Below, in pieces: positions 6,001 through 9,000 of a stretch of DNA of 64,000 nt. How positions within the stretch are numbered: the first letter of the stretch is position 1; every line of letters begins with the position of its first letter. The position numbers are program-made. Location of the stretch: NCBI RefSeq assembly GCF_000026545.1, contig NC_011601.1. One strand, given 5' to 3'. Source of the DNA: Escherichia coli O127:H6 str. E2348/69. Its GTDB lineage: Bacteria > Pseudomonadota > Gammaproteobacteria > Enterobacterales > Enterobacteriaceae.

Positions 6001-9000
6001 GCTGAACACGGTATCGTCTTCGGCGAACCGAAAACCGATATCGACAAGATTCGTACCTGGAAAGAGAAAGTGATCAATCAGCTGACCGGTGGTCTGGCTG
6101 GTATGGCGAAAGGCCGCAAAGTCAAAGTGGTCAACGGTCTGGGTAAATTCACCGGGGCTAACACCCTGGAAGTTGAAGGTGAGAACGGTAAAACCGTGAT
6201 CAACTTCGACAACGCGATCATTGCAGCGGGTTCTCGCCCGATTCAACTGCCGTTTATTCCGCATGAAGATCCGCGTATCTGGGACTCCACTGACGCGCTG
6301 GAACTGAAAGAAGTACCAGAACGCCTGCTGGTAATGGGTGGCGGTATCATCGGTCTGGAAATGGGCACCGTATACCACGCGCTGGGTTCACAGATTGACG
6401 TGGTTGAAATGTTCGACCAGGTCATCCCGGCAGCTGATAAAGACATCGTTAAAGTCTTTACCAAGCGTATCAGCAAGAAATTCAACCTGATGCTGGAAAC
6501 CAAAGTTACCGCCGTTGAAGCGAAAGAAGACGGCATTTATGTGACGATGGAAGGCAAAAAAGCACCCGCTGAACCGCAGCGTTACGACGCCGTGCTGGTA
6601 GCGATTGGTCGTGTGCCGAACGGTAAAAACCTCGACGCAGGCAAAGCTGGTGTGGAAGTTGACGACCGTGGTTTCATCCGCGTTGACAAACAGCTGCGTA
6701 CCAACGTACCGCACATCTTTGCTATCGGCGATATCGTCGGTCAGCCAATGCTGGCACACAAAGGTGTTCACGAAGGTCACGTTGCCGCTGAAGTTATCGC
6801 CGGTAAAAAACATTACTTCGATCCCAAAGTTATCCCGTCCATCGCCTATACCGAACCAGAAGTTGCATGGGTAGGTCTGACTGAGAAAGAAGCGAAAGAG
6901 AAAGGCATCAGCTACGAAACCGCCACCTTCCCGTGGGCTGCTTCTGGTCGTGCTATCGCTTCCGACTGCGCAGACGGTATGACCAAGCTGATTTTCGACA
7001 AAGAATCTCACCGTGTGATCGGTGGTGCGATTGTCGGCACTAACGGCGGCGAGTTGCTGGGTGAAATCGGCCTGGCAATCGAAATGGGTTGTGACGCTGA
7101 AGACATTGCACTGACCATCCATGCGCACCCGACTCTGCACGAGTCTGTGGGCCTGGCGGCAGAAGTGTTCGAAGGTAGCATTACCGACCTGCCGAACCCG
7201 AAAGCGAAGAAGAAGTAATTTGTCGTTTGCCGGAACATCCGGCAATTAAAAAAGCGGCTAACCACGCCGCTTTTTTTACGTCTGCAATTTACCTTTCCAG
7301 TCTTCTTGCTCCACGTTCAGAGAGACGTTCGCGTACTGTTGACCGCTGCTCGTTATTCAATCGGGCAGTACGGTTACTGTCGTTTAGACGTTGCGGGCGG
7401 CTCTCCTGAACTTTCTCCCGAAAAAACGGACGTTGTTCAGGTGATGCCGATTGAACACGCTGGCGGGCGTTATCACGTTGCTCTTGGTTCAGTGGGCGCT
7501 GCTGTACTTTTTCCTTAAACACCTGGCGCTGCTCTGGTGATGCGGACTGAATGCGCTGGCGCGCTGCCTCTCTTCGCTGCTGGTTCTGCGGGTTAGTCTG
7601 CATTTTCTCGCGAACCGCCTGGCGCTGCTCAGGCGGCGCGGACTGAATACGCTGACGTGCCGCTTCTCTTCGCTGCTGGTTCTGCGGGTTAGTCTGCATT
7701 TTCTCGCGGGCCGCCTGGCGCTGCTCAGGAGAAGCCGACTGATAACGCTGACGAGCGGCGTCCTTTTGTTGCTGGGTCAGTGGCTGGCGACGGCTGAAGT
7801 CGCGGAAGTCGTCATAGCTCCCATTGTGTTCAGCTTCATTAAACCGCTGTGCCGCTGCCTGACGTTGGGTATCTCGTGTAATGACGGGGGCGGTGTGTGT
7901 TCGTTGCTGAAACTGACTTGCTGCCGCATGACGCTGGCTGTCGCGTGTTGGAGCAGGTAACTGCGTGGCGCTCATTCCGCCGTTGACATCGGTTTGATGA
8001 AACCGCTTTGCCATATCCTGATCATGATAGGGTACACCATTACGGTAGTTTGGATTGTGCTGCCATGCCATATTCTTATCAGTAAGATGCTCACCGGTGA
8101 TACGGTTGAAATTGTTGACGTCGATATTGATGTTGTCGCCGTTGTGTTGCCAGTCATTACCGTCACGATGACCTCCATCGTGGTGATGATAATCATCATC
8201 GTCATGATGATGATGGTCATGATCGTCGTCGTCCCAGTCGATGCTGCTGAATAGTGCGTATGTGGTAGCAACGCCCATGCTATAGCCGAATCCGCGCACA
8301 AAGCTGTCAACAAACGGTTCTCCGGCTGGCGGCGGCAGATAAACTGGCGGATAAGCGGTATTGGCCCAACTGCCGTAAACCACGTTTGGGTTGTAGTTCG
8401 GAATATAAACCACATCCGGATTGGCTGGCTCAATGGTTATTACGGTCGGTGCAGGTTCTGCGACGACGGGGCTGGACGTAGAAACGGTATTTGATTGTGT
8501 GGCAGGGGCGTTGGCGGGCTGATTTACCGGTACGACTTTTTTCGTTGTCGTGATGATCTTTTGTTCAGTTGATGACTTCAGCGAGCCGGTTTGTTGCGCC
8601 AGTTGCCGCAATCGCTGTACCGAGTCCATCACGTCCTGCGGCTGCGCCAGAAAAGCATCGCCCAGGTTTTGCACCCATTGCGGGTTTTCGCCCATCAACG
8701 CCATCAACTGTGGAAAGGCCACCAGTGATTTGACGCTGGCGTCCCAGGACTGGCCAGATACCGCCTGAATAGCAGCATCGCCTTGTTTAAGTGGATTATC
8801 GTGTGACCATTGCACTGCTTGCGCAACGTTTGCCGGATAGGTTGATGCCATTAACACTTGTGAAAGCAGAGAGTCGGGGTACAGCGCGACGGGCGCGACC
8901 CATTGATCGATTTGTGCAGTGCTGAATGTAGATTTGACGACGGCAGGCGTTACGGGAGGCGCGGAAACCGTTGCAGGAAGCGTAACTGCGGAGATGTCAG

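What the first reader, a model, noticed from the sequence alone, without database searches (positions are those of the whole stretch)
7340..8260. yacH contains near-perfect 96-bp tandem repeats and a His/Asp-rich tract
Two adjacent 96-bp units (7571-7666 and 7667-7762) share an identical 42-nt core, with more diverged copies alongside, encoding a repeated basic Gln/Arg-rich 32-aa motif. A separate tract encodes DWDDDDHDHHHHDDDDYHHHDGGHRDGND, which looks metal-binding. YacH is poorly characterised; the near-identical repeats imply recent duplication or gene conversion, and copy number may vary between strains.
Basis: seen in the sequence. Interest (0 to 1): 0.3.

Follow-up and report, generated by a model that had tools for sequence, protein, structure and literature searches.

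The report
Length-variable repeats in E. coli yacH
The yacH gene of E. coli carries a real 96-base in-frame tandem repeat and a histidine/aspartate-rich tract. Both differ in length between strains, but this is an ordinary coding repeat polymorphism in an exported protein whose function is still unknown.

Summary
The window is E. coli E2348/69, and the finding lies in yacH (7289-9142, minus strand, 617 aa), a DUF3300-family protein.

- **Repeat.** Units 7571-7666 and 7667-7762 match at 85 of 96 positions, with the first 42 nt identical. Two more diverged copies follow. Each unit encodes 32 aa, made of two 16-aa helix modules that start SPEQ or NPQN. The array is very basic (pI 11.6).
- **His/Asp tract.** It lies at 8153-8239.
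- **Strain variation.** E. coli alleles carry 2 to 5 units, produced by several different unit-to-unit fusions or duplications, all in frame. The His/Asp tract ranges from 16 to 37 aa. In most Salmonella Typhimurium strains an 8-bp deletion in that tract makes yacH a pseudogene.
- **Fold.** No known fold or family matches the repeats. The resemblance to Spy/CpxP LTXXQ proteins stays at motif level.
- **Family context.** DUF3300 proteins generally end in basic, low-complexity, lineage-specific repeat tails. In five of five other loci a DUF2950 gene follows them. E. coli has lost that partner.

Function remains inferred: an exported envelope protein with a cationic, length-tunable helical tail and a possible metal-binding acidic tract. 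Interest is modest.

The parts
7289..9142 (-). yacH coding sequence (617 aa plus stop), DUF3300-family protein
   Evidence: ORF. It is 100% identical to the annotated yacH of E. coli E2348/69. Pfam PF11737 match, E 1.3e-77.
9068..9142 (-). N-terminal signal peptide or signal anchor (aa 1-25, MKMTLPFKPHVLALICSAGLCAASA)
   Evidence: This is the only strongly hydrophobic 19-residue segment in the protein (Kyte-Doolittle 2.04, aa 11-29). Helix 9-23 in the model. The family consensus has a signal-peptide-like N-terminus. PMC4653623 reports signal peptides in the family. The cleavage site is inferred, not predicted by a dedicated tool.
8144..8920 (-). Pfam DUF3300 match (aa 75-333): helical core aa 75-184, linker, then a beta-rich Pro/Tyr segment
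   Evidence: AlphaFold2 pLDDT is above 94 for aa 70-200.
8393..8569 (-). Hypervariable linker (aa 192-250), with two deep allele classes in E. coli
   Evidence: 16 differences per 60 nt between E2348/69 and K-12. dS is about 0.9, against 0.1-0.2 elsewhere in the gene and about 2.3% divergence in the flanking lpd and acnB.
8153..8239 (-). His/Asp-rich tract DWDDDDHDHHHHDDDDYHHHDGGHRDGND (aa 302-330), encoded mostly by GAY/CAY codons; length-polymorphic
   Evidence: Alleles of 16 to 37 aa occur in E. coli. pLDDT is below 50. An 8-bp deletion in the equivalent tract inactivates yacH in S. Typhimurium.
8021..8134 (-). Family-conserved motifs NINIDVNNFNR (aa 337-347) and WQHNPNYRNGVPYHD (aa 360-374), lying beyond the Pfam boundary
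   Evidence: The consensus of 104 family representatives shows ..VxINVNRxNNxN.. and WxHNPxHRxGVxYRD. Coordinates. pLDDT is 94 for aa 361-380.
7826..7948 (-). Two degenerate upstream modules, TRDSQRHAAASQFQQRTH and TRDTQRQAAAQRFNEAEH (aa 399-439)
   Evidence: Predicted helices 400-412 and 423-437.
7667..7762 (-). Repeat unit 1 (aa 461-492)
7571..7666 (-). Repeat unit 2 (aa 493-524); 85/96 identical to unit 1
7475..7570 (-). Repeat unit 3 (aa 525-556); 67/96 identical to unit 2
7379..7474 (-). Repeat unit 4 (aa 557-588); 54/96 identical to unit 2
7292..7378 (-). Arg-rich C-terminal tail SNRTARLNNEQRSTVRERLSERGARRLER (aa 589-617)
   Evidence: pI 11.9. pLDDT below 45.
7248..7277 (.). Hairpin AAAAAAGCGGC-TAACCAC-GCCGCTTTTTTT between the convergent lpd and yacH genes; likely a bidirectional intrinsic terminator
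   Evidence: Seen in the sequence. It folds at -16.9 kcal/mol in context. The consensus scan did not list it. Function is inferred.

Best explanation
The feature is a protein-coding minisatellite inside yacH.

Shown:
- yacH encodes a DUF3300-family protein with a single N-terminal hydrophobic signal segment.
- Its last third is a hierarchy of repeats. A 16-aa helix module begins with a Ser/Asn-Pro cap (SPEQRQ.. or NPQNQQ..). Modules are paired into 32-aa (96-bp) units. Four units are present here, with degenerate modules on both sides.
- The array is strongly basic (pI about 11.6) and Gln/Arg-rich. It is predicted as a string of short hydrophilic helices, not a globular domain.
- Because 96 is a multiple of 3, unit gains and losses stay in frame. 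E. coli strains carry 2 to 5 units, with several different junction types.
- The neighbouring His/Asp tract is encoded by GAY/CAY triplet runs. It varies in the same way (16-37 aa), and in Salmonella Typhimurium it occasionally varies out of frame.
- Substitutions in the repeats are under purifying selection.

Inferred:
- Length changes arise by unequal homologous recombination or replication slippage between units that share 40-60-nt identical stretches.
- The protein is exported.
- The basic helical array acts as an extended polycationic arm that contacts an anionic envelope component, and its reach or avidity changes with copy number.
- The disordered acidic His/Asp tract binds divalent cations. 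It is an enterobacterial expansion of a conserved DW..H..D-IDID motif.

The confidence of 0.6 is for the whole statement. The shown part I hold at about 0.9, the recombination mechanism at about 0.8, and the functional inferences at about 0.3.
For: Repeat anatomy.

Coding status:
- An intact ORF is annotated as yacH in 5,410 of 5,426 complete genomes.
- All length variants examined are in frame.
- There is no Rfam match.

Copy-number alleles and junctions:
- A,C,D in IAI1 and Ecol_743.
- A,B plus a C/D hybrid in APEC and SCU-101.
- An A/C hybrid plus D in RM6927.
- Three identical B-type units in P0007.
- A 12-nt partial deletion in 2013C_3653.

Purifying selection: dN/dS is 0.09-0.21 in the units.

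Structure:
- Helices 457-467, 472-483, 486-501, 504-515, 518-532 and 536-547 have pLDDT 80-88. The last 70 aa are below 45.
- Mean helix hydropathy is -1.5 to -2.5.

Export:
- The protein has one hydrophobic segment only, at aa 11-29. Segment 281-301 is not membrane-like and is modelled as beta strands.
- Signal peptides are reported for the family.

Family context:
- 9,493 representative relatives were found.
- Tails of other members are basic and low-complexity, with their own repeat periods of 12, 14, 18 and 24 aa.
- His/Asp enrichment occurs at the same position in 12 of about 105 representatives, including Scandinavium and Rahnella.

Slippage-prone His/Asp DNA.

Envelope link in the literature:
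- yacH is CpxR- and Rob-dependent.
- It is repressed by protamine and cecropin A.
- It is induced by ampicillin and by a cathelicidin.
- A delta-yacH strain survives protamine better.
Against: - No experiment or homology tells what the tail or the His/Asp tract binds.
- Localisation rests on hydropathy and family-level statements, not on a dedicated predictor or on data.
- The gene can be lost. It is a pseudogene in most S. Typhimurium strains and is interrupted by IS1 in one E. coli genome.
- E. coli lacks the DUF2950 partner found next to DUF3300 genes elsewhere. Length variation could therefore be tolerated rather than useful.
- AlphaFold confidence in the repeats may simply reflect helix propensity.
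- The allele census is a sample of 60 genomes, not a full count.
Confidence: 0.6

Rival explanations
1. Relaxed remnant. yacH in E. coli is the orphaned half of a DUF3300-DUF2950 two-gene module and is slowly decaying. The repeat and His/Asp length variation is neutral noise in a disordered tail with no function of its own.
For: - DUF2950 follows DUF3300 in five of five other loci. One is the syntenic acnB-DUF3300-DUF2950...lpd locus of Scandinavium.
- E. coli has no match to that DUF2950 gene.
- yacH is a pseudogene in most S. Typhimurium strains and carries an IS1 insertion in one E. coli genome.
- The last 70 aa and the His/Asp tract have pLDDT below 50.
- Tails are not conserved across the family.
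Against: - dN/dS is 0.1-0.2 in the units and the tail.
- 5,410 of 5,426 genomes keep at least 80% of the gene. 59 of the 60 sampled genomes carry an uninterrupted gene, and every allele translated here is in frame.
- Transcription is regulated and a knockout phenotype is reported.
- Basic repeat tails recur independently across the family, which suggests that the property, though not the sequence, is selected.
Confidence: 0.25
2. Spy/CpxP/ZraP-like periplasmic chaperone or metal sensor. The S-P-E-Q-R/K helix starts would be LTXXQ-type motifs, and the His-rich tract would play the role of the ZraP His-rich ends.
For: - Motif-level resemblance: SASPEQRQVFKEKVQQR aligns with the LTPEQKKQFNANFEKR of Spy, and LTQQQK with LTDAQKQQ.
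- The hhalign score of 20.1 is above 20 shuffled controls, which scored 9.0-14.6.
- yacH is reported as CpxR-regulated and envelope-stress responsive.
- That Spy, CpxP and ZraP are basic helical periplasmic proteins, and that ZraP is His-rich, is recalled from memory.
Against: - No Pfam LTXXQ or Metal_resist match appears even at E up to 10.
- BLASTP E is 1.4 for a single comparison.
- hhalign probability is 2.3%.
- There is no PDB sequence or fold match to Spy or CpxP.
- The helices here are far more hydrophilic than a helical-hairpin cradle would need.
Confidence: 0.1
3. Contingency or antigenic-variation locus. The repeats and the hypervariable linker would diversify a surface-exposed protein under pressure from phage or host immunity.
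For: - Many length alleles arise by independent events.
- The linker at aa 192-250 falls into two deeply divergent allele classes.
- yacH is only 90-95% identical in most genomes, while its flanks are about 98% identical.
- PSORTb-type labels of 'extracellular' or 'outer membrane' appear in papers.
Against: - dN/dS is well below 1 everywhere, including the linker at 0.18.
- All repeat periods are multiples of three, so there is no on/off switching.
- No evidence of surface exposure exists.
- Allele classes in the small sample largely follow phylogroup.
Confidence: 0.1
4. The repeat is a non-coding DNA or RNA element (REP-like, CRISPR-like, or an antisense RNA) that merely overlaps an ORF.
For: Terminator-like hairpins are flagged inside the units on the + strand at 7587-7602 and 7683-7698.
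Against: - The number of such hits is no higher than in shuffled sequence: 4 found against 3.4 expected.
- There is no Rfam family.
- The period is a multiple of three, variation is in frame, and purifying selection acts at the protein level.
Confidence: 0.01

Closest known systems
DUF3300 (Pfam PF11737) proteins of the DUF3300-DUF2950 gene pair
   Same: - Strong HMM match: 260.7 bits against a cut-off of 25.
- Signal-type N-terminus, helical core and IEPxxPxVVYVPxYNP segment.
- INIDVN and WxHNPxHRxGVPY motifs.
- Basic low-complexity C-terminal tail.
   Different: - E. coli yacH has no DUF2950 gene downstream. lpd follows after a 70-bp spacer with a terminator, although the syntenic Scandinavium locus has one.
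- The His/Asp tract is greatly expanded.
- The tail is organised as 32-aa units specific to Escherichia. Scandinavium has only degenerate 16-aa modules.
Spy / CpxP / ZraP (LTXXQ-motif periplasmic stress proteins)
   Same: - Presumably exported, basic and helical.
- Helices start with an S/T-P-E-Q-R/K motif.
- Reported Cpx regulation.
- The His-rich tract recalls ZraP (recalled from memory, not tested).
   Different: No significant sequence, profile or fold similarity was found. The architecture also differs: a repeat tail appended to a DUF3300 domain rather than a small helical-hairpin dimer.
Coding minisatellites (in-frame VNTRs) in bacterial envelope and surface proteins, and repetitive periplasm-spanning spacers such as TolA domain II and the TonB Pro-rich region (named from general knowledge, not tested here)
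   Same: - Head-to-tail units whose length is a multiple of three.
- Copy number differs between strains through unit-to-unit recombination.
- The product is an extended, charged, low-complexity segment.
   Different: - The units here are Gln/Arg-rich with Ser/Asn-Pro helix caps.
- The host protein has no known function or partner.
- No role as a spacer or antigen has been shown.
Histidine-rich metal-binding tracts (for example the SlyD and HypB tails, Hpn, ZraP; named from general knowledge)
   Same: High density of His interleaved with Asp: 9 His and 13 Asp in 29 residues. The tract is predicted to be disordered.
   Different: - It is internal rather than terminal.
- It is embedded between conserved DUF3300-family motifs.
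- It is presumably periplasmic.
- Metal binding is untested.

Membership tests
DUF3300 (PF11737) | Match to the family HMM above the gathering score | tested here: met
   E 1.3e-77, 260.7 bits against a cut-off of 25. The match covers aa 75-333 and profile positions 2-227 of 227.
DUF3300 (PF11737) | N-terminal secretion signal | tested here: inconclusive
   There is a single hydrophobic segment at aa 11-29 (KD 2.04), preceded by Lys2 and Lys8 and followed by A-S-A. The family consensus and the literature agree. No dedicated signal-peptide predictor was available.
DUF3300-DUF2950 two-gene module | A DUF2950 gene immediately downstream of the DUF3300 gene | tested here: not met
   The partner is present in five of five other loci. 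Here yacH is followed by a terminator and the convergent lpd. There is no tblastn hit in the window and no blastn hit in 5,426 E. coli genomes.
LTXXQ / Spy-CpxP family (PF07813) and Metal_resist / ZraP (PF13801) | Match to the family HMM, or significant profile similarity to Spy/CpxP | tested here: not met
LTXXQ / Spy-CpxP family | Conserved L-T-x-x-Q motifs at helix starts | tested here: inconclusive
   There is one literal LTQQQ at aa 455-459. Each unit has A-S-P-E-Q (or A-P-P-E-Q) at a predicted helix start. This is a resemblance in motif only.
DUF3106 (PF11304) | Match to the family HMM above the gathering score | tested here: not met
   E 1.7, 9.6 bits against a cut-off of 24.3.
Coding minisatellite / in-frame VNTR | Head-to-tail tandem units whose length is a multiple of three | tested here: met
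   Period 96 with no indels. The units are contiguous at 7379-7762.
Coding minisatellite / in-frame VNTR | Copy-number polymorphism among strains of the species | tested here: met
   2 units (RM6927), 3 (IAI1, APEC, Ecol_743, SCU-101), 4 (E2348/69, K-12, KD602) and 5 (P0007), with different fusion junctions. Gene spans in the sample of 60 genomes.
Histidine-rich metal-binding tract | High His density with acidic neighbours | tested here: met
   9 His and 13 Asp in 29 aa, pI 4.6.
Histidine-rich metal-binding tract | Demonstrated binding of Ni, Zn, Cu or Co | not testable with these tools
   This needs ITC or ICP-MS on a peptide or the protein.

The most novel reading that the evidence does not exclude
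DUF3300 and DUF2950 form a very widespread but uncharacterised envelope module. There are at least 9,493 representative clusters at 50% identity, and the module is induced in symbiosis transcriptomes. In Escherichia the DUF3300 half would have been freed from its partner and re-tooled. An expanded His/Asp tract would capture metal or protons. A copy-number-tunable polycationic helical arm would set how the envelope meets cationic antimicrobial peptides. Natural 2- to 5-unit alleles would then be adaptive variants of peptide or envelope-stress tolerance.
Probability: 0.1. Interest if true: 0.55.

Novelty: new member of a known kind. Interest (0 to 1): 0.27.

Why it matters
yacH belongs to the E. 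coli 'y-ome', the set of genes with no assigned function. It also belongs to a very large family with no characterised member and no solved fold. This work adds five things:
- A documented in-frame repeat polymorphism of 2-5 units.
- A second length-variable tract of 16-37 aa.
- A hypervariable linker.
- The loss of the conserved DUF2950 partner in E. coli.
- A clean negative result for membership in the Spy/CpxP family.

Natural alleles offer a ready-made series for testing whether tail length changes tolerance to cationic peptides or envelope stress. The locus could also serve as a typing marker. None of this is surprising to a specialist, because coding minisatellites in exported low-complexity tails are common.

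Tried and rejected
1. The repeat finder on 7289-9142 and on 7300-7900 reported no direct repeat family.
2. NCBIfam gave no family.
3. Pfam on the isolated C-terminal and middle parts at E up to 10 gave only noise: DUF3106 E 1.7, FAZ1_C, RskA_N, Ig_5.
4. The PDB sequence search gave only His-tag-like or compositional matches with E near 1 or above.
6. Spy/CpxP homology was rejected.
7. I considered a second transmembrane helix at aa 281-301, which would put the basic tail in the cytoplasm. I rejected it because the 19-residue hydropathy stays below 0.9 and the model shows beta strands.
8. The CpxR-box scan gave one 2-mismatch site at 9197-9211, upstream of yacH. Window-wide counts are close to chance (72 found against 57 expected), so it is not informative.
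9. Rfam gave nothing.
10. Literature searches for a yacH VNTR or MLVA locus found nothing relevant. The hits were the author name Yachie and the Salmonella pseudogene papers.
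Full report
**1. Where we are**

The 1854-nt stretch 7289-9142 is 100% identical to the annotated yacH gene of Escherichia coli E2348/69 (H1). It lies on the minus strand between lpd, which is convergent, and acnB, which is divergent. The 617-aa product matches Pfam DUF3300 (PF11737) over aa 75-333 with E 1.3e-77. It matches no NCBIfam model.

**2. The observation**

- Units 7571-7666 and 7667-7762 are identical at 85 of 96 positions. The first 42 nt are identical, and 19 more follow after two mismatches.
- Tandem Repeats Finder gives a period-96 array at 7522-7753, with 2.4 copies, 87% matches, no indels and score 352. It also gives a weaker period-48 array.
- Copies at 7475-7570 and 7379-7474 match unit 2 at 67/96 and 54/96. 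All three identities are far beyond chance, with P of 7e-33, 1e-15 and 8e-8.
- On the coding strand the four units are aa 461-588, and the His/Asp string is aa 302-330, window 8153-8239.
The repeat finder failed to list the array, which I attribute to the tool.

**3. Anatomy of the repeat**

- The 32-aa unit is itself two 16-aa modules, xAARQRIQSASPEQRQ and AVREKMQTNPQNQQRR. This explains the period-48 signal.
- Degenerate modules lie upstream (TRDSQRHAAASQFQQRTH and TRDTQRQAAAQRFNEAEH). An Arg-rich tail lies downstream.
- The units hold 28 Lys+Arg and 29 Gln in 128 residues, with pI 11.6. The tail has pI 11.9.
- I built an AlphaFold2 model with 104 family sequences. Its mean pLDDT is 70.7.
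  - The DUF3300 helical core scores above 94.
  - The repeats form helices of 12-16 residues, each starting at SPEQ or NPQN, with pLDDT 80-88.
  - The last 70 residues and the His/Asp tract score below 50.
- The helices are very hydrophilic, with mean hydropathy of -1.5 to -2.5. An extended charged helical arm is therefore more plausible than a packed domain.

**4. Variation between strains**

yacH is present in 5,416 of 5,426 complete E. coli genomes. In the evenly spaced sample of 60 genomes, the gene spans were as follows:

| Gene span | Genomes |
|---|---|
| 1854 nt | 30 |
| 1758-1759 nt | 17 (two inferred, not read directly) |
| 1764 nt | 6 |
| 1815 nt | 2 |
| 1848, 1782, 1746, 1662 nt | 1 each |
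| split by IS1 | 1 |

Translating representative alleles gave these unit compositions:

| Units | Strain or protein | Length |
|---|---|---|
| 2 | RM6927 | 553 aa |
| 3 | IAI1, APEC E16002 | 585 aa |
| 3 | Ecol_743 | 587 aa |
| 3 | SCU-101 | 593 aa |
| 4 | E2348/69, K-12-like | 617 aa |
| 4 | KD602 | 604 aa |
| 5 | P0007 (three identical units) | 648 aa |

- A unit-by-unit distance matrix shows four unit types, A to D, that are orthologous across strains.
- The short alleles come from different fusions. One A/B-type unit is lost in IAI1 and Ecol_743. APEC and SCU-101 carry a C/D hybrid. RM6927 carries an A/C hybrid. 2013C_3653 has a 12-nt partial deletion.
- A separate 45-aa tandem duplication gives the 662-aa alleles.
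- The His/Asp tract ranges from 16 aa (KD602) to 37 aa (SCU-101, P0041). It is encoded almost entirely by GAY and CAY codons.
- In S. Typhimurium an 8-bp deletion (GATCATCA) in this tract makes yacH a pseudogene in 14028s, UK-1, SL1344 and D23580 (PMC3391293; PMC10048834).
However, the A/B pair of this strain is old, because K-12 has the same pair with 11 differences. It is not a recent private duplication.

**5. Selection**

- dN/dS between E2348/69 and four other alleles is 0.09-0.21 in the units and 0.12-0.18 over the whole gene. The repeat sequence is therefore constrained.
- The gene as a whole is unusually divergent. Most genomes are 90-95% identical to this allele, while the flanking lpd and acnB are about 98% identical.
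- The excess is concentrated in the linker at aa 192-250. There dS is about 0.9 between the B2-type and K-12/IAI1-type alleles.

**6. Family context**

- An exhaustive profile-free search found 9,493 representative relatives.
- An alignment of 104 of them gives a common plan:
  - a signal-type N-terminus;
  - a helical core;
  - the IEPxxPxVVYVPxYNP segment;
  - a Gly-rich hydrophobic stretch ending in W;
  - a short acidic/His motif;
  - the INIDVN and WxHNPxHRxGVPYRD motifs;
  - a basic low-complexity tail.
- The tails are not homologous to each other but are often repetitive, with other periods of 12, 14, 18 or 24 aa.
- Strong His/Asp enrichment occurs at the same position in 12 of about 105 representatives. 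These include Scandinavium and Rahnella, so it is an order-level trait of Enterobacterales.
- The SPEQR 32-aa unit is Escherichia-specific. Scandinavium has only degenerate 16-aa modules.
- A DUF2950 gene follows the DUF3300 gene in five of five other loci examined, as PMC4653623 reports.
- The Scandinavium locus is syntenic (acnB-DUF3300-DUF2950-...-lpd). E. coli has evidently lost the partner. There is no match in 5,426 genomes or in the window.

**7. Comparison with known families**

- The SPEQR helix starts, the basic helices, the His-rich tract and the reported Cpx regulation recall Spy, CpxP and ZraP. The tests fail:
  - no Pfam LTXXQ or Metal_resist hit at E up to 10;
  - BLASTP E of 1.4;
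  - hhalign probability of 2.3%, although its score of 20.1 exceeds 20 shuffled controls at 9.0-14.6.
- This is a motif-level resemblance, not family membership.

**8. What the literature says**

- yacH is CpxR-regulated. Its mRNA falls with protamine, and a delta-yacH strain survives protamine better. The same paper cites repression of yacH by cecropin A (PMC9600279).
- It is strongly down-regulated in a rob mutant (PMC7537768).
- Ampicillin induces its promoter (PMC8865558).
- It is listed among genes up-regulated by a cathelicidin in UTI89 (PMC6737244).
- Its deletion raises recombinant protein yield (PMC7376861).
- I found no paper describing the repeat polymorphism.

**9. Interpretation**

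- *Shown:* the feature is a coding, in-frame, length-polymorphic minisatellite with a second slippage-prone tract. It sits in a DUF3300 protein with a single N-terminal hydrophobic segment. Purifying selection acts on the unit sequence, and family members recurrently carry lineage-specific basic repeat tails.
- *Inferred:*
  - Unequal recombination or slippage between 96-bp units generates the alleles.
  - The protein is exported.
  - The tail is an extended polycationic arm contacting an anionic envelope component.
  - The His/Asp tract binds divalent cations.
  - Length may tune function.
- *Main rival:* the variation is neutral in a partner-less, dispensable gene.

**10. Verdict**

The feature is real and correctly read by the first stage, and its key prediction is verified. 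It is an ordinary kind of polymorphism in a gene of unknown function. Interest is modest at 0.27.

Noticed in passing
window 8393-8569 (yacH aa 192-250): The linker between the DUF3300 helical core and the beta-rich segment is about 27% nucleotide-divergent between E2348/69 and K-12 or IAI1. dS is about 0.9 and dN/dS about 0.18. The flanking lpd and acnB differ by about 2.3%. B2 strains (Ecol_743, APEC, SCU-101) share the E2348/69 type. This points to two deep allele classes or an old import.
   Followed up: partly
L016:1046-6484 (Scandinavium) compared with window 7219-9496: The Scandinavium locus reads acnB - DUF3300 - DUF2950 - MFS - LysR ... lpd, which is syntenic with E. coli lpd-yacH-acnB. 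E. coli therefore lost the DUF2950 partner and its neighbours. There is no blastn match to that DUF2950 gene in 5,426 E. coli genomes.
   Followed up: yes
L013:3001-5631 (E. coli CUWW06): yacH is split by an IS1B insertion. Together with the S. Typhimurium 8-bp frameshift reported in the literature, this shows the gene is dispensable in some lineages.
   Followed up: partly
proteins P0028, P0030, P0031 (662 aa E. coli alleles): These alleles carry a separate 45-aa (135-bp) tandem duplication, AAPVITRDTQRQAAAQRFNEAEHYGSYDDFHDFSRRQPLTQQQKD, upstream of the 32-aa units.
   Followed up: no
window 7248-7277: The hairpin AAAAAAGCGGC-TAACCAC-GCCGCTTTTTTT lies between the convergent lpd and yacH genes and looks like a bidirectional intrinsic terminator (-16.9 kcal/mol in context). 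The consensus terminator scan did not list it.
   Followed up: partly
window 7289-9142: the repeat finder returned no direct-repeat family for a 96-bp tandem array that TRF scores at 352. This appears to be a blind spot of that tool for adjacent copies.
   Followed up: partly
protein P0280 (cluster of P0125): A protein labelled Campylobacter jejuni sits in a cluster (grouped at 90% identity) that otherwise consists of Rahnella DUF3300 proteins. It is probably a mislabelled or contaminated assembly.
   Followed up: no
window 9197-9211: A weak CpxR-box-like site, GTGAATCCGAGTATA (2 mismatches to GTAAA-N5-GTAAA), lies 55-70 nt upstream of the yacH start. Window-wide counts of such sites are near chance.
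   Followed up: partly
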